Origin: Desulfobacteraceae bacterium UBA2156
Lineage (GTDB): Bacteria > Desulfobacterota > Desulfobacteria > Desulfobacterales > UBA2156
Direction of reading: 5' to 3'
Length of the DNA stretch: 64,000 bases
Assembly (NCBI GenBank): GCA_002328165.1
Contig: DCWS01000029.1
Coordinates: 46,387-110,386, forward strand
The position numbers were made by a program, and so were the translations under genes. How positions within the stretch are numbered: the stretch's first letter is position 1; every line of letters starts with the position of its first letter. Below the pieces are notes generated by a model, which did no database searches, was not told where the DNA came from, and saw nothing but the letters and a program-made list of their open reading frames with translations. This document shows, piece by piece, positions 4,729-40,657 of the stretch.

Positions 4729-6108
4729 TTATCGAATGGCAAAAGGGGCGCCAGTGACGTATTTTAGCAGAATTGGGTCACCTGCGGCAAGGGTAACATC
4801 CAGATAGCCTCTATTGCCATCGCTTTGGGTCAGCAAAAGGGTCTCCACCTTTCCATTGAGCTTGTTCAGGGTGAGCAGTGATGACCGACTGGTTTCCTGC
4901 GGCGCGTTCGAAAAATCAAATGTGATGCGGATCGTATCGGTGCCCCCTTCACTCACCGGCCAGGATCCATGGGTGTGGGAAACATTCTGCAGCATGAAGT
5001 AAAATTCGCCGGTATCATCTCGAAAAAAACCAACAGAAAACTCCAGCAACGAGTTTTCATTTGAACGTTCAATATCGACGATATAAGGATCATTCCCGGC
5101 ACCCGCCTCCCAGTTTTTTGTCTCTTTTGGTTGTAGCCACTCTATTAAGGGAATGTAGCGGACCGCTGTACTCGTCAACTGGGTTATCGCTCGCCCGAGA
5201 TTGTACATCTCGATATTGATCTGGGCTGCGATATGCCAGAGTGCCGTCGGCGATGTATTGAAACTGTCTTCGGCTTCAAACAGCGCAGGATCAAGGCCGT
5301 GATCCGGCCCAATGTTGTAAAAGAACCAGGTGTGTCCAGTGTATCCATAGAGAATCCCCGAAAATGCATTCCATCTCATGTCCGATTCGGTGAACGCGTC
5401 CGGATCGTCCTGGTTATAGTACGATTTTAGATAGCGCCAATACGGCTTATTTTGATCCAGACCGGCGTGACGAAAAATCTCCAGGGCCTCGTATGCGGAG
5501 CTGCTCCGTGTGTAATGATCGTAACTGATGATATCGCCGTCCACATGCTCACCGTAGTAGTCAAGAACATCATCGACATAATCGCTCATCTGAAAATTGA
5601 GATAGATCAATGCATTAGAATCCAGGGCACGAACCGCATTGACACCCGCCTCCATCGTCTGGAGGTTGTTAATAGCACACGCCAGACTGAGACAATCTCT
5701 GGCCGGCTCATCCCCTATCTGAAATCCGATCCTCCCCTGCACATCAGCGCTGTAACCGCCGATCAGTTCACCCCCGTCCGCGCTAGTTCCATCACTTTTT
5801 ACCCAGGAAACAAATCGAAAACTCGGGTGACCCGCGGCTGCCCATGCATCTGCCTCTCGAGGCAATCCATCTTCCCACAGATGCACTGCTGTCGCATAAA
5901 AATCATTAAAATACGTATTGACAAAATCACTGGGAGGCTCTCCCATCGAAACACTCAGGCCGCTAACAAACATAGGATTCGCCCTTATCCATTCAAGGGC
6001 TCGTGTCATCTGTGGCGGTTCGAAATCCGGATCATCCGGGTAATCGATTCCCAAATCGATACACGCGACAAGCAAAATTGCCAGCAAAATGATGATAATA
6101 CGCTTCAT
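4729..6108 (-). CDS. Hypothetical lipoprotein (possibly glycoside-hydrolase-like TIM-barrel; uncertain)
   Basis: The ORF is 459 aa. The signal peptide carries a lipobox (MKRIIIILLAILLVAC). GC is visibly higher than in flanking genes. I recognise no family-defining motif beyond a GDEP-type segment. Confidence 0.55.
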   Translation of the reverse strand: MKRIIIILLAILLVACIDLGIDYPDDPDFEPPQMTRALEWIRANPMFVSGLSVSMGEPPSDFVNTYFNDFYATAVHLWEDGLPREADAWAAAGHPSFRFVSWVKSDGTSADGGELIGGYSADVQGRIGFQIGDEPARDCLSLACAINNLQTMEAGVNAVRALDSNALIYLNFQMSDYVDDVLDYYGEHVDGDIISYDHYTRSSSAYEALEIFRHAGLDQNKPYWRYLKSYYNQDDPDAFTESDMRWNAFSGILYGYTGHTWFFYNIGPDHGLDPALFEAEDSFNTSPTALWHIAAQINIEMYNLGRAITQLTSTAVRYIPLIEWLQPKETKNWEAGAGNDPYIVDIERSNENSLLEFSVGFFRDDTGEFYFMLQNVSHTHGSWPVSEGGTDTIRITFDFSNAPQETSRSSLLTLNKLNGKVETLLLTQSDGNRGYLDVTLAAGDPILLKYVTGAPFAIR

Positions 6109-26614: not shown

Positions 26615-27015
26615 GGTATCACTCTCCCGAACCCGTCTTCAAGATCGGTTTTCAGCCGATCACTACAGGTGTTTATTATTTCAATTGCCTCAAAAGCAAT
26701 CATACTCAACACCCTCTAAACTGGTTATTACTTAATTTTAAGATATTACATTTCCTATTAAAAAGGTCAACATTGGACTGCAACAACTACATATTCAAGT
26801 TTCGCACCGCCAATCCACTGGAGCATCCGGTCGGATTTCGTCTGAACATGATTTTTCGTTCAGGCACTGCCGGCAAGATATGGACATTGTATTCAAAATG
26901 AGTTAGTTAGAGCTTCTCCATTAACCAGCTGACATTGAAAAAACAATACCGGAAAATTTCCAAATTGAATTGAAGGTATCAGGCTGTGGTCTCTATGAAA
27001 TTAGGATAGGAGAAA

Positions 27016-27545
27016 ATAACGATCCATCCGTTGGTCACCCAGTTGCGTTTTGCCCGTACCGAGTTCATGCGTTGTCTCGAAGGTGTTTTTGCAGAGGATG
27101 CTCGCCGGCGTCTTCTACCAATGAACTGCATCAGCTGGATTGTGGGACATCTGGCATACCAGGAGCACCTGTACTGGGTGGTTCGGGCCCAGGGCCGCGA
27201 TCTAGCGCCCGACCTGGAACATCAGGTGGGTTGGGACCAACACCCGCGAGTACGCCGCCTTTGGATGGGATGTGGGACACCTATCACACCGTTACCGATG
27301 CTGCTGACACGTATTTGGACTCGTTCGTTCGGTCGTTAACGTGGACGACCGGACGTTTGCAGACACACCAAAAATGGGAAGGTGAGCATTTAGACGAGAG
27401 TATCGGTACCAAGTTGTTGAGAAATATCTACCACTATTGGTTTCATACAGGCGAGGCACACGCAATCAGACAGTTGTTGGGGCATACTGATTTGCCGGAG
27501 TTTGTGGGTGATATCTCCAGGGCAGTCTACCACCCAGAAGCTTAA
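27016..27545 (+). pseudogene. DinB-family (DinB_2-like) protein gene, frameshifted; GC-rich
   Basis: The N-terminal half sits in the frame of ORF 27031 (..LVTQLRFARTEFMRCLEGV..MNCISWIVGHLAYQEHLYW..). The C-terminal half sits in the frame of ORF 26970 (..PASTPPLDGMWDTYHTVTDAADTYLDS..LLRNIYHYWFHTGEAHAIRQLLGHTDLPEFVGD). The frames switch near 27228-27233, consistent with a 1-nt loss in ggt(t)tggga. The only starts are TTG at 27031 or ATA at 27016. Local GC is about 58% against about 42% in the flanks. Confidence 0.7.
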
Positions 27546-28014: not shown

Positions 28015-28271
28015 AAAGCCCCCTTGGAATGTCACATAAGCCGGTATCTTAAAGAGTTGTTTGAAAAATGTCAATTAATTCTATAGAAATGTATGCCTCA
28101 AAAAAAAAAACCTGGAGATTCAAGGGATGAGTCCGTCCAAAATGGCCTAAAATGGGGTAATTCCCATCAATCTGTGGGTGATCACATCTACTCACCTCTT
28201 TTTGCAACCATTCACAACCTTTTCTGCCATACCGTGCTCCTAAATCTCCATATATCGTGGCCCATTATTTC

Positions 28272-28375: not shown

Positions 28376-28621
28376 ATGAAAAAATTTGTTTGTTCAATAT
28401 GCGGATTTGTTCACGAAGGCGAATATCCACCGGGAAGGTGCCCCGGTTGCGGTGCAGGCGGGTTTAAATTTAAGGAACAGCAAACCGGTGAATAATCCTG
28501 GGCCGACGAGCACGTAACCAGTGTGGAAAAAGATGTTGACCCTGAAATCATTGAAGGTCTAAAGATGAATTTTATCGGTGAATTCACGGAGGTACGAATA
28601 TATCTAGCCATCTGTGGTTGA
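28376..28621 (+). pseudogene. Reverse-rubrerythrin-type gene remnant (rubredoxin-like N-domain plus the first ~40 aa of the ferritin-like domain)
   Basis: The frame reads MKKFVCSICGFVHEGEYPPGRCPGCGAGGFKFKEQQTGE-TAA(28493-28495)-SWADEHVTSVEKDVDPEIIEGLKMNFIGEFTEVRIYLAICG-TGA(28619-28621), all in one frame. Similarity to the diiron four-helix domain stops after ..TEV.IYLA, so the rest of the gene is absent. Confidence 0.6.
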
Positions 28622-28731
28622 AATCAAACGGACTGTGGATAAAACACTAATCAAATATCGCGGGAATTTTCAGAACTGATATATGCCGAATCGTATGGAG
28701 ATATGTAAACTGAACGACCCTGCTCAGAGGG

Positions 28732-28995
28732 CTAATCATGCACTCGGCCCGGAAACTTGCTCCAACTCCGAAAAGATAGCCCTGGACTTGACGATCGGGC
28801 ACCGCCCGCCACCTTATCCAACTCTTTATCACTCAACTCTACCGATCCATTTAAATCCTCAGCGGTGAATTCATAGCCCTGCTCTGCTCCTAAGGCAATC
28901 AGAGACTCGCTATCAATTTCGTCGCTAATCCTTGCCTTAAGTTCATCACTCTCTGCTGCATGTTTCATAAATTGTTCAAAATCCTCTTTGCTCAT
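28732..28995 (-). CDS. Nif11-type leader peptide RiPP/bacteriocin precursor (87 aa) with GG cleavage motif
   Basis: The sequence is MSKEDFEQFMKHAAESDELKARISDEIDSESLIALGAEQGYEFTAEDLNGSVELSDKELDKVAGG | ARSSSPGLSFRSWSKFPGRVHD. Its architecture parallels prochlorosin-type Nif11 leaders (MSEEQLKAF...AGFxIxxEDL...LSDxELExVAGG). The ATG at 28995 has AGGAA about 8 nt upstream. The track's 131-aa version starts further upstream. Confidence 0.72.
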   Translation of the reverse strand: MSKEDFEQFMKHAAESDELKARISDEIDSESLIALGAEQGYEFTAEDLNGSVELSDKELDKVAGGARSSSPGLSFRSWSKFPGRVHD

Positions 28996-29659
28996 GATGG
29001 ATTTCCTGTTGGTTGAAGCGGTTCCAGATTTGAAATTCCCCAAGTTTCGGGCCATTCCAGACCTTTTGTCTGATCTGGAATTTTGGATGGTTAAATTGGA
29101 GATAGCTAAATTATGGTTCAATGTCAATATGGATAAACAAGATTTTATGGTTTGTTTCTTGATGATGTTTTTGCGGTATCTTGAAGGTTTTTATCAGAAA
29201 ACCTTATATCACGGAACCTTTGTCAGTTGATTCTAACGCATCTATTTCATATGGCTTGCAAGCCGATTTGTTAATTCAACGGCATTGATGATAATGTGCC
29301 AATAATCATATTTCCACTTCAATGAGCGATTAATAACAAAATAAAACCCCTGTCTTGTCCAGGTAAAAAGGGTTTTATGCAATATCTCTATGTATCCCTC
29401 CTATTAAAGTCGAAACCAATTTTAAAAATATAGCGAAAAATTACCTATATTCATTCAGTTAGTAAAGAATTTTTATGAGAAAATTCAAGCAGTTATCCTA
29501 AAAAGACAAAATACTATAACAATGAATTGAAGCGTTATCTCCGACAATTCTTTTCATTGTCCGCGTTCGTTGACATTAAATATAGATTTTTCAATAACTT
29601 TATATAATATCTTTAAAATTTCAGGTTTTCAATTATTAAAACGATTAAGAGAAATAGGA

Positions 29660-30846
29660 ATGGAAATGAATTTAAAAAACGGTTATCGGTGGAATATTCT
29701 TGGGCTCGCTACTTTTTGCTTATTGACATTTGGTGTTATTTTTCAAGGTATTCCCCCGCTTATACGAATTTTGGTTAATGTCTTAAATATCTCCTACGCA
29801 AAGGCCGGTGCACTGATGGGCATATTTACACTCCCATCGATTTTTTTGTCGCTTCCCAGTGGTATGCTGGCGGACCGTTATGGACCCAAAAAAGCGGGTG
29901 TTGCTTCACTATGGCTCTCGGATCGGTAATAGTTGCTTTGGCCGGCAGCTATTGGGTTATGGCAACTGGGAGACTGGTGGCGGGGATCGGAGCAACCGTC
30001 TTGGTCGTTGTGACACCAAAAATTGTCACCTCATGGTTCTATGATCGAGAGATAGGCCTATCGATGGGAATATTTAACACTGCAATGCCGCTGGGTACGA
30101 TTTTATCCCTTAATTTTATGGGAATCATTGCATACCGATTCAGCTGGCAGGCATCAATATGGGTTGACTTTGCCATCAGTATAGCCGCGTTAAGTCTTTT
30201 CCTCTTGTTATACCGAAGCCGAAACGCTGATGAAGGGTTACGAGCAGACCCACAGAATTTGCCAACGGTGATAAAACAGGCCGGCGGGAAAGTCTGGCTG
30301 GTCGGGCTGTCATGGGGTTTATTCAACGCCGGCATTATCTCGTTTTTTACCTATGCACCGGATTACTTTGTTGCCCAAGGAGAAAACATTGCCAAAGCGG
30401 GGCTTCTGGCAAGTTATCCGATGTGGGGTTCTATCTTCCTATCACCGCTAGTGGGTATGTCAATTGACAAAATTGGGAGCAAATGGCTGTTTGTCTCGGT
30501 TGGGTGCTGTGGTGTAGCCATATTATTATATTTGCTCCCGCAATTAACTCATCATGCCACAATCCTTTCCATTTCTATTGGAATCTTCATAGCTCTCCTG
30601 ACTCCAGCGATATTTTCATTACCGGCAGAGCTTCTGCCAGAACCGATGATGGGCTTCGCATTTGGTATCTTTGGCACTACCCTCGGCATTGGGATATCAG
30701 TTGGCCCCTATATCGTTGGCAGTTTACGGGATGCGACTGGCGACTACTTGCGGAGTTTCGCCGCAATGGCCATTTTCTCTGGATTAGGTATAATACCTAT
30801 GTTGATACTCAGAATGAAGAAAAATTTGATCCATTTTGAACTATAG
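29660..30846 (+). pseudogene. MFS transporter gene split by a -1 frameshift
   Basis: ORF 29570..29929 (..LPSGMLADRYGPKKAGVASL-WLSDR*) and ORF 29911..30846 (MALGSVIVALAGSYWVMATGRLVAGIGA..) form one 12-TM MFS protein if a single base is restored near 29909-29912. Confidence 0.7.
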
Positions 30847-39647: not shown

Positions 39648-40657
39648 GCAAATCCTCTACATCCCCCCGTCCCCAAGGAGAAATGACAAGTGCGGAACGG
39701 TTCCGGGAAATTATGCGGTTTGGATCTCCGGACCGCGTGCCCTACTTTGAAGAAGGCATTAGAGACGAAGTTATCAAAGCTTGACAAACAGAGGGACTGA
39801 CCCCGCAGACCGACCTCAATCAGCTCTTTCCAACCGATCGACGTCGGGAAATACAAATCGATCTGGAGCCATTGCCGAGACTTGAGAACTGGCCCATAGG
39901 CATCGCCGATCTCGATACGATGTAGGACAGACTCGACCATCTTGATCCCGACCGCTTTCCTGAAAATTGGTCGGATGTCGTTCGGAGTTCTAAAACAGAT
40001 GGCCAGGTAAACATGTTAAGGGTACACAGGGGCTTTTTCCAGTCCATGGGGGTTAAGGGGTGGGACCGGTTTCACAAATTGATGCAATTAACTGTTTACA
40101 ACCCGGAATTCGTACGCCAGGCGATGCTGATCCAGGGTCAATTTTCAACCAGGCTGGTTGAACGGGTACTCAATGAGATTCAGATCGATGCGGCCATCTT
40201 CAGCGAGCCGATCGGAGGAAATGACCGACCGCTGATCTCACCAAAGATGTATGAAGAACTGATGCTCAAAAGCTATTCCCCGATCCTGAAAGCTCTGAAC
40301 CGCGGGAAGGTTCACACGATCATTTTCAGAACTTACGCCAATGCAAAAATATTGATCCCGAGTATTTTGAAATGGTGCTTCAATTGCCTGTGGGCCTGTG
40401 AGGTCAACGCCGAAGCGATGGACTATCGGACACTGCGGCGGGAGTTTGGCCCTGATCTGCGTCTTATAGGAGGCATCGACCTCGATGCCCTGCGACAGGG
40501 AAAGGCGTCGATTAAGCGAGAATTGCACGCGAAAATTCCCCCGCTCCTTATAGGTGGATATGTGCCGATGGCTGACGGTCGGGTTCGCGAAGATGTAGCG
40601 TTTAAAAATTATATTTATTACCGCCGGTGGTTGAAAAAAATAACCGGGATCCTATAG
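39644..40657 (+). pseudogene. Uroporphyrinogen-decarboxylase (URO-D) family protein gene with two in-frame stop codons
   Basis: The ATG at 39644 overlaps the cdaA stop (ATGA). One frame reads MSKSSTSPRPQGEMTSAERFREIMRFGSPDRVPYFEEGIRDEVIKA-TGA(39782-39784)-QTEGL...ADLDTM-TAG(39923-39925)-DRLDHLDP... and continues into track ORF 40013..40657 (..IFSEPIGGNDRPLISPKMYEELM..). Confidence 0.7.

What the first reader, a model, noticed from the sequence alone, without database searches (positions are those of the whole stretch)
28732..28995. Orphan Nif11-type leader peptide precursor with a Cys-free core, sitting in a decayed locus
The 87-aa ORF has the full architecture of Nif11-like RiPP leaders, the family used by prochlorosins and other GG-cleaved peptides. 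It has an N-terminal MSxExFxxF helix, a central ..GAEQGYEFTAEDL segment, and the terminal LSDKELDKVAGG double-glycine site. The 22-aa core that follows is ARSSSPGLSFRSWSKFPGRVHD. It has five Ser, three Arg and one Trp, and no Cys or Thr. It therefore cannot be a lanthipeptide or a sactipeptide of the usual kind. No LanM, radical-SAM, YcaO or PCAT (C39 peptidase-ABC) gene lies anywhere in this 64-kb window. Three readings are possible. The maturation genes may be encoded elsewhere, as with scattered procA genes. The core may belong to an unrecognised modification class (Ser/Trp/Arg chemistry). Or the core may be degenerate, since the neighbouring genes are pseudogenes.
Basis: partly seen in the sequence, partly recalled or inferred. 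Interest (0 to 1): 0.6.

Follow-up and report, generated by a model that had tools for sequence, protein, structure and literature searches.

The report
Orphan Nif11-leader peptide gene, Cys-loss allele
This is a real but ordinary gene for a Nif11-type secreted-peptide precursor in a marine Desulfobacterales bacterium; its processing enzymes are not nearby, and its "cysteine-free" tail comes from one base change in this strain lineage, because every related strain keeps one cysteine there.

Summary
The 87-aa ORF (28732..28995, minus strand) is real. It scores above the curated cut-offs of TIGR03798 and Pfam Nif11, and it has a canonical LSDKELDKVAGG site followed by a 22-aa core.

The "Cys-free core" is true only of this allele. 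All 21 other ortholog variants read ...SPGLSFRCW(S/N)(K/R)FPGRVHD, with one Cys. The window has TGT>AGT (C77S).

The allele is not a sequencing error. The exact protein occurs on at least 37 contigs of up to 287 kb. The 23 contigs of this allele that were read show the window's gene order: a split MFS gene, and HU close downstream, which implies the 1352-bp deletion.

On the window's branch all four changes in the gene are non-synonymous. Pooled neighbouring genes give 36 non-synonymous to 57 synonymous changes (p = 0.026).

No maturase or C39-ABC exporter lies in the 64 kb, or within 10 kb in any relative.

The core is unique to this small clade. The leader belongs to a large marine family (623 clusters). 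In that family 63% of cores lack Cys, genes often sit in tandem arrays or alone among housekeeping genes, and a few abut radical-SAM maturases.

Verdict: a new member of a known kind, an orphan precursor matured in trans or, in this lineage, drifting. Low to moderate interest.

The parts
28732..28995 (-). Nif11-like leader peptide precursor gene, 87 codons plus TAG stop
   Evidence: ORF list and translation. TIGR03798 45.1 bits against a cut-off of 32.3. PF07862 44.3 bits against 23.8. The exact protein is in public collections as P0153, named 'Nif11-like leader peptide family natural product precursor [Desulfobacterales bacterium]'.
28801..28995 (-). Leader, residues 1-65, ending in LSDKELDKVAGG (double-glycine site)
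   Evidence: The HMM match covers residues 1-65. The AlphaFold2 model has four helices in residues 3-53 with pLDDT 72-83. A profile of the leader family matches PDB 9zn4_A 'Nif11 domain-containing protein' at E = 1.5e-8.
28735..28800 (-). Core, residues 66-87: ARSSSPGLSFRSWSKFPGRVHD (22 aa, +3 charge, unmodified monoisotopic mass 2460.24)
   Evidence: Direct translation. Composition and mass. Predicted disordered, pLDDT below 50. The last 17 residues are invariant in 21 other variants apart from S/N at position 79, K/R at position 80, and the window's C77S.
28765..28767 (-). Codon 77, AGT (Ser); TGT (Cys) in all relatives
   Evidence: Codon-by-codon comparison with L001-L009 and L030. The outgroups L009 and L030 have TGT, so Ser is the derived state.
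29002..29007 (-). AGGAAA Shine-Dalgarno-like sequence 6 nt upstream of the ATG
   Evidence: Read directly from the sequence. Its function is inferred, not tested.
28717..28732 (-). Weak terminator-like hairpin GCCCTCTGAGCAGGGT starting in the stop codon, tail CGTTCAGTTT
   Evidence: Consensus scan. Three such sites were found in 1.7 kb against 1.3 expected, so this is weak evidence.
28376..28621 (+). Remnant of a 'reverse' rubrerythrin gene: a 39-aa rubredoxin-like ORF (28376..28495), a stop, then a short ferritin-like N-terminal fragment (28523..28621). It converges on the precursor gene.
   Evidence: Translations. Pfam RUBY_RBDX is recorded for the same ORF in relatives. NCBIfam gives weak hits below cut-off to a rubredoxin-like domain and to rubrerythrin. 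The remnant is conserved in L001 and L009.
28078..28092 (.). Junction of a 1352-bp deletion specific to the window's lineage. The Cys-77 lineage and the outgroup L009 carry the extra segment here, with a 283-aa gene.
   Evidence: BLAST break points. L009 shares the segment with L001. The flanking imperfect 15-bp direct repeats ACTTTTCTATGGAAT / ACAATCCTATAGAAT collapse to one hybrid copy in the window.
29570..30846 (+). MFS transporter gene split into 119-aa and 311-aa ORFs by a 7-bp deletion at about 29910. It is intact (397 aa) in the Cys-77 lineage. It diverges from the precursor gene.
   Evidence: ORFs. Gap listing against L001 and L002. Gene calls in relatives.
26970..27545 (+). Frameshifted DinB/MST-like gene, with its two halves in different frames
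   Evidence: Two overlapping ORFs with DinB-like sequence in different frames. Relatives have only 87-91-aa fragments with a weak PF04978 hit. There is a 1-nt indel at 27241 between the lineages.

Best explanation
The ORF is a genuine single-copy gene for a Nif11-type (N11P, TIGR03798) double-glycine precursor peptide in a marine Desulfobacterales species. The first ~53 residues form a small helical Nif11 domain. In this family that domain is the handle recognised by maturases and by a C39-peptidase ABC exporter. Cleavage after Gly64-Gly65 would release a 22-residue cationic peptide.

The gene is an orphan. It sits in a rearrangement-prone gap between an MFS gene and an HU gene, beside a rubrerythrin remnant. 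Any maturase and exporter must act in trans from elsewhere in the genome, as with scattered prochlorosin genes and most of its own leader relatives.

The ancestral core carried one Cys (SFRCW). The lineage sampled by the window replaced it with Ser. The same lineage accumulated three more amino-acid changes and no silent ones, lost 1352 bp downstream, and frameshifted the MFS gene upstream. In this lineage the peptide is therefore most likely under relaxed constraint, or is used in a form that does not need the thiol.

Shown: family membership, orthology, the allele's history, the absence of local partners, and the properties of the leader family. Inferred: cleavage, export, trans-maturation, and relaxed selection.
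For: Family membership is above the curated cut-offs. The leader is predicted helical and the core disordered.

There are orthologues at 95, 86 and 77% identity, and 22 distinct variants. All are in frame with the same stop, and one variant has an in-frame 9-nt deletion.

Cys77 is present in every variant except the window's. The window's four differences from the sister lineage are all non-synonymous and all derived. Pooled neighbouring genes give 36 non-synonymous to 57 synonymous changes, Fisher p = 0.026.

The Ser77 allele is exact on at least 37 contigs, in 66 index blocks, on contigs up to 287 kb, from Tara, JGI, ENA and NCBI. The 23 contigs that were read show the split MFS and HU about 720 bp downstream, the spacing that implies the deletion.

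No maturase or exporter is in the window or within 10 kb in relatives.

The leader family has 623 clusters, and only one of them shares the core. Of 119 cores with a clear GG site, 75 have no Cys. About a quarter of the fetched loci (29 of 111) have more than one leader hit, usually 2-4 adjacent genes. Most members sit among housekeeping genes. Three kinds of locus abut radical-SAM maturases: L012/L096 and L068, next to an unclassified rSAM-SPASM, and L067, next to TIGR03975 at 506 bits.

Literature: the N11P consensus is ELSDEELEAVAGG with a suffix of about 23 aa. Some N11P occur in species with no identified TOMM or lanthionine enzymes, and many are linked to TIGR03794/6/7 exporters (PMC2887384). 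Nif11 clusters carry very diverse maturases (PMC8784127).
Against: No exporter, protease or maturase has been shown for this organism, because only 64 kb of the genome was available.

Purifying selection on the gene is weak overall. L001 vs L009 gives 9 non-synonymous to 7 synonymous changes. L001 vs L030 gives 13 to 2. The ORF is no better conserved than the adjacent pseudogene remnant in L009. The gene could therefore be drifting in the whole clade.

The selection test rests on four substitutions.

Nothing shows that the gene is expressed. The promoter scan is at chance level.
Confidence: 0.55

Rival explanations
1. Relic gene. In the window's lineage the precursor is no longer functional. 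Its partner enzymes, or its selective value, were lost, and the ORF survives only because it is short and the loss is recent.
For: The only Cys of the core is lost. All 4 changes are non-synonymous and all fall on this branch, while the sister lineage has none. Two more lineage-specific lesions lie within 1.2 kb: the 7-bp frameshift in the MFS gene and the 1352-bp deletion. The surroundings already hold older pseudogenes.
Against: The ORF is intact and identical on at least 37 contigs from many samples. The four replacements are conservative (N>D, Q>H, V>A, C>S). The leader still scores above the family cut-offs. With p = 0.026 from four sites, the acceleration is only suggestive.
Confidence: 0.25
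2. Unmodified double-glycine peptide. The core is exported and cleaved by a C39-ABC transporter encoded elsewhere, and it acts as a linear cationic bacteriocin or signalling peptide with no further modification.
For: There is no maturase near the gene in any relative. The core is conserved between species rather than hypervariable. The Cys/Ser swap is tolerated in an abundant lineage. The core is short, has +3 charge and contains aromatic residues. There are weak sub-threshold hits to double-glycine bacteriocin leader models: TIGR01847 at 13.5 bits against 15.7, and NF038167 at 21 against 32.
Against: No exporter, immunity gene or sensor kinase is adjacent. The bacteriocin models are all below cut-off. 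Nif11 leaders are long, folded recognition domains that are usually tied to maturases (PMC2887384, PMC8784127).
Confidence: 0.15
3. Ancestrally a one-ring thioether peptide. This could be a lanthionine from Ser74 (or Ser68-70) to Cys77, made by a distant LanM. It could also be a sactionine- or ranthipeptide-type link made by an rSAM-SPASM enzyme. The window allele would then be a ring-less variant.
For: Relatives have Ser at i-3 from the single conserved Cys, and four more Ser upstream. Nif11 leaders serve LanM in cyanobacteria (PMC2887384). rSAM-SPASM enzymes abut members of the same leader family.
Against: No LanM or rSAM is seen near any orthologue. A single Cys is weak evidence. An abundant lineage does without it.
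Confidence: 0.15
4. Not a precursor at all. It would be a small cytosolic Nif11-domain protein with a floppy tail.
For: The Nif11 domain is predicted to fold. Nif11 proteins of unknown function exist outside RiPP clusters (PMC2887384). No RiPP machinery is nearby.
Against: It passes the RiPP-specific TIGR03798 model over its full length, including the ELSD..ELD..VAGG end. Its nearest relatives are classic tandem precursor arrays with hypervariable tails, some of them next to rSAM maturases.
Confidence: 0.07

Closest known systems
N11P / TIGR03798 Nif11-like leader peptide RiPP precursors (Haft, Basu & Mitchell 2010, PMC2887384)
   Same: The whole leader matches above cut-off. The end motif LSDKELDKVAGG fits the consensus ELSDEELEAVAGG. 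The 22-aa suffix fits the typical ~23 aa. Some members occur without recognised maturases.
   Different: It is single-copy rather than part of a paralogous expansion. The host is a sulfate-reducer-type deltaproteobacterium rather than a cyanobacterium. The core sequence is unique to a very small clade.
Prochlorosin precursors (ProcA) of Prochlorococcus/Synechococcus
   Same: A Nif11 leader with a GG site, and precursor genes scattered far from the single maturase.
   Different: Prochlorosin cores carry several Cys plus Ser/Thr and are hypervariable between paralogues. Here there is one Cys at most (none in the window), no paralogue in 64 kb, and a core conserved between species. No LanM is seen.
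Marine metagenome Nif11-leader peptides with MSKENLEQFM...AELSDEELDGVAGG leaders
   Same: The leader is 50-70% identical. Most cores are Cys-free. Many genes are orphans among housekeeping genes. An F-(R/K)-hydrophobic motif is enriched in the cores and is present here as SFR(C/S)W.
   Different: Those cores are longer (median about 40 aa), hypervariable and often in tandem arrays of 2-4. A few abut an unclassified rSAM-SPASM or a TIGR03975 C-methyltransferase. None of this is seen at this locus.
Proteusin/Nif11 clusters with radical-SAM C-methyltransferases, epimerases, GNAT acyltransferases (polytheonamides, selidamides; PMC8784127)
   Same: They show that Nif11/NHLP leaders routinely guide chemistry that does not need Cys.
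   Different: Those precursors are clustered with their enzymes, and here none is nearby. Membership cannot be tested from the window.

Membership tests
TIGR03798 / N11P Nif11-like leader peptide RiPP precursor | Score at or above the curated NCBIfam cut-off (32.3 bits) across the leader model | tested here: met
   45.1 bits, E = 9.2e-12, protein residues 1-65 on model positions 1-68 of 68.
TIGR03798 / N11P Nif11-like leader peptide RiPP precursor | Pfam Nif11 domain (PF07862) at the N-terminus | tested here: met
   44.3 bits against a gathering score of 23.8, residues 1-48. A profile of the family matches PDB 9zn4_A 'Nif11 domain-containing protein' at E = 1.5e-8.
TIGR03798 / N11P Nif11-like leader peptide RiPP precursor | Double-glycine cleavage motif of the ELSDxELxxVAGG type, followed by a short core (~23 aa) | tested here: met
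   ELSDKELDKVAGG followed by 22 aa. Consensus and suffix length are taken from Table 3 of PMC2887384.
TIGR03798 / N11P Nif11-like leader peptide RiPP precursor | A maturase (LanM, cyclodehydratase, rSAM) and/or an NHLM-type exporter (TIGR03794/03796/03797) present in the same genome | not testable with these tools
   None in the 64-kb window or within 10 kb in relatives. The source species is not among the GTDB representatives that were scanned.
TIGR03798 / N11P Nif11-like leader peptide RiPP precursor | Leader actually removed and core modified | not testable with these tools
   Needs peptidomics or heterologous expression.
Class II lanthipeptide (prochlorosin-like) | Core with Cys plus Ser/Thr that can form a thioether ring | tested here: not met
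   The window core has 0 Cys. Orthologues have 1 Cys and 5 Ser, so the ancestral allele would meet this minimally.
Class II lanthipeptide (prochlorosin-like) | LanM (DUF4135 + LanC-like) encoded in the genome | tested here: inconclusive
   Absent from the window and from all the related loci fetched. The rest of the genome is unseen.
Sactipeptide / ranthipeptide | Cys donors in the core and an adjacent rSAM-SPASM maturase | tested here: not met
   There is no Cys in the window core and no radical-SAM gene in the window.
rSAM-matured Nif11 peptides of the same leader family (L012/L068/L067 type) | Precursor adjacent to an rSAM-SPASM (~525 aa) or a TIGR03975 C-methyltransferase | tested here: not met
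   Seen at L012/L013/L022/L096/L098, L068 and L067, but not at this locus or at its orthologues.
rSAM-matured Nif11 peptides of the same leader family (L012/L068/L067 type) | Shared core motif F-(R/K)-hydrophobic | tested here: inconclusive
   The motif occurs in 30 of 120 cores against 7.3 expected. In a hold-out set it occurs in 5 of 29 against 1.8, and 23 of 1000 shuffles reach that number. The orthologues' SFRCW fits the pattern. The window's SFRSW does not fit strictly. Part of the enrichment comes from homologous sub-groups of cores.
Unmodified double-glycine (class II) bacteriocin or pheromone | Match to a double-glycine leader model, with a neighbouring C39-ABC transporter and an immunity or sensor gene | tested here: not met
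   TIGR01847 scores 13.5 bits against a cut-off of 15.7. The other bacteriocin models are also below cut-off. No such neighbours are present.

The most novel reading that the evidence does not exclude
The peptide may be a conserved, single-copy offshoot of a large, uncharacterised marine family of Nif11-leader peptides. In that family the mostly Cys-free, hypervariable cores would be matured by an unclassified radical-SAM/SPASM enzyme acting in trans on an F-(R/K)-hydrophobic site. This would be a prochlorosin-like 'one enzyme, many scattered substrates' library built on radical chemistry instead of lanthionine. The SFR(C/S)W segment would be the modified site, and the Cys/Ser polymorphism would then be irrelevant to maturation.
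Probability: 0.12. Interest if true: 0.6.

Novelty: new member of a known kind. Interest (0 to 1): 0.3.

Why it matters
On its own it matters little. Orphan Nif11 precursors and Cys-free Nif11 cores are both documented, and nothing here calls for new chemistry.

Two points have modest value. First, the case shows that a "Cys-free" core read from one genome can be a strain-level allele. The ancestral peptide had a Cys, so class predictions made from a single sequence can mislead. The natural Cys77/Ser77 pair in two co-existing marine populations is a ready-made test of whether that residue is needed.

Second, the leader links this gene to a large, apparently uncharacterised family in marine metagenomes. 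Most of its cores are Cys-free, and some of its genes abut an rSAM-SPASM enzyme that fits no curated subfamily. That family would be a better target for discovery than this locus.

Tried and rejected
1. Frameshifted longer core. The other two frames and the read-through after the stop show no Cys-rich or conserved continuation. All orthologues stop at the same codon. Rejected.

2. Sequencing error as the source of Ser77 or of the MFS frameshift. Rejected. The exact allele recurs on dozens of long contigs, and those that were read have the same lesions. The MFS lesion is a 7-bp deletion, not a homopolymer slip.

3. The 283-aa gene next to the precursor in the Cys77 lineage as the missing maturase. 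Rejected. It has no Pfam or NCBIfam hit. It is a shortened member of a widespread family of about 342 aa. In other Desulfobacterales that family sits beside HU or MFS genes with no Nif11 gene present.

4. Searching for the core alone. A 40-aa C-terminal query found nothing, not even P0001, which contains it exactly, so that search is uninformative.

5. Finding the source genome or paralogues in GTDB representative genomes. Only other Nif11 peptides with unrelated cores were found.

6. Fold search of the model against the PDB gave no significant match, best E = 8.8. The model's confidence is only moderate (pLDDT 63.6).

7. Rfam and tRNA scans found nothing near the locus.

8. Promoter and terminator scans were at or near chance level.

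9. Strong purifying selection on the core. Not demonstrable. The last 17 codons are also identical at silent sites, and too few silent changes are expected there to tell.

Full report
**What is there.** On the minus strand, 28995 down to 28732, lies an 87-codon ORF: MSKEDFEQFMKHAAESDELKARISDEIDSESLIALGAEQGYEFTAEDLNGSVELSDKELDKVAGG|ARSSSPGLSFRSWSKFPGRVHD.

- It matches NCBIfam TIGR03798 (Nif11-like leader peptide family RiPP precursor) at 45.1 bits, against a curated cut-off of 32.3. The match runs over the whole model and ends at the GG.
- It matches Pfam Nif11 at 44.3 bits against 23.8.
- An AGGAAA sequence sits 6 nt before the ATG, and a weak hairpin overlaps the stop. The promoter and terminator scans are not above chance.
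- An AlphaFold2 model built with 54 family sequences gives four helices in residues 3-53 (pLDDT 72-83). Everything from residue 54 on is disordered. That is the expected shape of a folded Nif11 leader with a free core.
- A profile of the family finds one solved Nif11-domain protein, 9zn4_A, at E = 1.5e-8. A fold search of the model itself found nothing.

The only error is that the core has six Ser, not five.

**Surroundings.** The window is an ordinary chromosomal stretch of a Desulfobacterales bacterium. It carries EF-P, GuaA, KdsB, ClpA/S, SecA, FolD, ArgC, HU, HolA, LspA, IleRS, EF-G, GlyQS, RecO, MgtE, Mfd and others. I scanned the ten least obvious large ORFs against Pfam. None is a LanM, radical-SAM, YcaO or C39-ABC protein. 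A tblastn with the leader finds no second copy in the 64 kb.

Around the gene:
- Downstream and convergent is a rubrerythrin remnant: a 39-aa rubredoxin-like ORF, a stop, then a short fragment.
- Next comes HU.
- Further on is a frameshifted DinB/MST-like gene.
- Upstream and divergent is an MFS transporter gene, split in two.

**Orthologues.** A search of 5.8 billion proteins returned three clusters, at 95, 86 and 77% identity. Listing the cluster members gave 22 distinct variants in all.

Every variant except the window's reads ...SPGLSFRCW(S/N)(K/R)FPGRVHD. There is one Cys at position 77, where the window has Ser. The cause is a single T>A change, TGT to AGT. Both outgroups (L009 at 88% nucleotide identity, and L030) have TGT, so Ser is derived. 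All variants keep the frame and the stop, and L030 has an in-frame 9-nt deletion in the leader. But the central inference, that a Cys-free core defines the peptide, does not hold for the family.

**The allele is real and widespread.** The window's exact protein (P0153) is in the collection on at least 37 contigs, indexed in 66 blocks. The contigs reach 287 kb and come from NCBI MAGs, JGI, ENA, Logan and Tara. All 23 contigs that were read share the window's arrangement: a split MFS gene, and HU about 720 bp after the precursor.

The sister lineage (P0001, Cys77, 25 contigs) is about 98.7% identical in DNA. It has an intact 397-aa MFS gene where that neighbour is present, and an extra 1352 bp between the rubrerythrin remnant and HU.

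The more distant L009 also has that segment. In L001 it is flanked by imperfect 15-bp direct repeats, which the window has collapsed into one hybrid copy. It is therefore a deletion in the window's lineage.

The gene it removed encodes 283 aa and has no Pfam or NCBIfam hit. It belongs to a widespread family of about 342 aa. In other Desulfobacterales that family lies beside HU or MFS genes with no Nif11 gene nearby. I therefore reject it as a dedicated maturase.

**Selection.**
- Between the window and the sister lineage the gene has 4 non-synonymous and 0 synonymous differences (N5D, Q12H, V13A, C77S). All are derived on the window's branch.
- Eight intact neighbouring genes pooled give 36 non-synonymous and 57 synonymous changes. 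The one-sided Fisher test gives p = 0.026.
- This suggests relaxed or altered selection in this lineage, but it rests on four sites.
- Deeper in the clade the signal is weak. L001 vs L009 gives 9 non-synonymous to 7 synonymous changes. L001 vs L030 gives 13 to 2.
- In L009 the ORF is no better conserved than the adjacent pseudogene remnant.
- The replacements are conservative. The last 17 residues are nearly invariant, but they are invariant at silent sites too, so protein-level constraint on the core cannot be proved from these data.
- In L030, similarity to the window begins at the ATG and ends a few bases after the stop. In L009 it begins at the ATG. In L003 and L032 it breaks 227 bp upstream. 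The gene therefore sits at a rearrangement-prone spot, or it moves as a unit.

**The wider family.** A profile search of 1.84 billion cluster representatives found 623 clusters at E <= 0.001. Only one of them, the orthologues, matches over the core. All the others match residues 1 to about 67 only. The core is thus unique to a very small clade, while the leader is common.

- Cores of the best 150 hits, where a GG site is clear: 75 of 119 have no Cys and 31 have one. They are 13-73 aa long and unrelated to one another, apart from some sub-groups.
- Scans of GTDB genomes and JGI metagenomes brought in about 90 loci with such leaders. The genome hits come from Acidiferrobacteraceae, Arenicellales, Acidobacteriota, Longimicrobiales and unclassified Proteobacteria MAGs.
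- About a quarter of the loci (29 of 111) show more than one leader hit, usually 2-4 adjacent genes.
- Most precursors lie among housekeeping genes, such as trigger factor-ClpPX-Lon, ParAB, tRNA synthetases and transporters.
- Three kinds of locus have a maturase next door:
  - A GNAT gene plus an rSAM-SPASM of 525 aa (L012, L013, L022, L096, L098).
  - A 30%-identical rSAM-SPASM (L068; E = 1e-46 between the two). Both enzymes are far below every curated NCBIfam cut-off.
  - A TIGR03975 'RiPP maturation radical SAM C-methyltransferase' at 506 bits (L067).
- An F-(R/K)-hydrophobic tripeptide is enriched in the cores: 30 of 120 against 7.3 +/- 2.6 in shuffles. I chose this pattern after seeing the data. 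In a non-overlapping hold-out set it occurs in 5 of 29 against 1.8, and 23 of 1000 shuffles reach that number. The orthologues' SFRCW fits the pattern, and the window's SFRSW does not fit strictly. Part of the enrichment reflects homologous sub-groups, such as RFSFRVR cores.

Cys-free cores, orphan placement and radical-SAM partners are therefore normal for this leader family.

**Comparison with the literature.** Haft et al. defined N11P/TIGR03798 with the consensus end ELSDEELEAVAGG and a suffix of about 23 aa. They noted paralogous expansions, linkage to TIGR03794/6/7 exporters, and members in species with no identified TOMM or lanthionine enzymes (PMC2887384). Hubrich et al. surveyed 2,346 NHLP/Nif11 clusters. 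They found highly diverse maturases and frequent ABC-C39 transporters (PMC8784127). The present gene fits that description in every feature I could test. What I could not test is whether its genome encodes an exporter and a maturase.

**Verdict.** This is a genuine orphan Nif11-type precursor gene, and a new member of a known kind. The most likely mechanism is recognition of the folded leader by enzymes encoded elsewhere, cleavage after GG, and export of a 22-aa cationic peptide. These steps are inferred from the family. In the lineage sampled here the ancestral Cys has been replaced, and the gene and both of its flanks show lineage-specific lesions. Relaxed constraint is therefore a serious alternative for this copy. 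Nothing requires a new modification class. Interest is low to moderate (0.3). The more promising lead is the apparently uncharacterised Cys-poor leader family and its unclassified rSAM-SPASM partner.

Noticed in passing
L012:10755-12332 (+), L068:1187-2758 (+); precursors at L012:10001-10381 and L068:486-680: Two rSAM-SPASM proteins of about 525 aa lie directly after Nif11-leader precursors with almost Cys-free cores. They are 30% identical to each other and have a ~140-aa N-terminal extension. Both score far below the cut-off of every curated NCBIfam rSAM subfamily. The L012 type is also flanked by a 302-aa GNAT gene. This may be an undescribed maturase family.
   Followed up: partly
P0004-P0152; L034-L110: A large marine-metagenome family of Nif11 leaders (MSKENLEQFM...AELSDEELDGVAGG). 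Its cores are hypervariable and mostly Cys-free, and its genes often sit in tandem arrays of 2-4. Recurrent core motifs are seen (RFSFRVR, FDVGP, F-R/K-hydrophobic). About a fifth of the cluster representatives diverge from the leader before the GG site, as if frameshifted or recombined.
   Followed up: partly
window 28078-28092; L001:10919-12270; L004:1388-2239 (-): The window's lineage has a 1352-bp deletion between imperfect 15-bp direct repeats. It removed a 283-aa gene of a conserved family with no Pfam or NCBIfam hit. That family is usually about 342 aa, keeps 55% identity across many Desulfobacterales, and includes an Olavius Delta-1 symbiont protein. It usually lies next to HU.
   Followed up: partly
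L030:229-490 vs window 28729-28999; L009:1168; L003/L032 break at window 29222: Similarity between the window and the most distant orthologue is confined almost exactly to the ORF, about 90% identical, with unrelated flanks. Two other relatives have break points at the ATG or 227 bp upstream. The precursor gene either sits at a rearrangement hot spot or moves as a unit.
   Followed up: partly
window 29570-30846 (+): The MFS transporter gene is inactivated by a 7-bp deletion (ACTGAAA, at about 29910). The split gene is seen in all 23 Ser77-lineage contigs that were read. The gene is intact in the sister lineage.
   Followed up: yes
window 28376-28621 (+): A rubrerythrin remnant. Its 39-aa rubredoxin-like ORF (CxxC...CxxC) is almost unchanged in a relative that is only 88% identical overall, and gene callers call it as a gene. 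It might survive as a mini-rubredoxin rather than as dead DNA.
   Followed up: no
window 4729-6108 (-) and 40013-40657 (+): ORFs of 459 aa and 214 aa with no Pfam match at E <= 1e-4. The first begins with a lipoprotein-like signal sequence.
   Followed up: no
window 26970-27545 (+): A DinB/MST-like pseudogene whose two halves are in different frames. The two lineages differ by a 1-nt indel at 27241, yet neither restores a full-length frame.
   Followed up: partly
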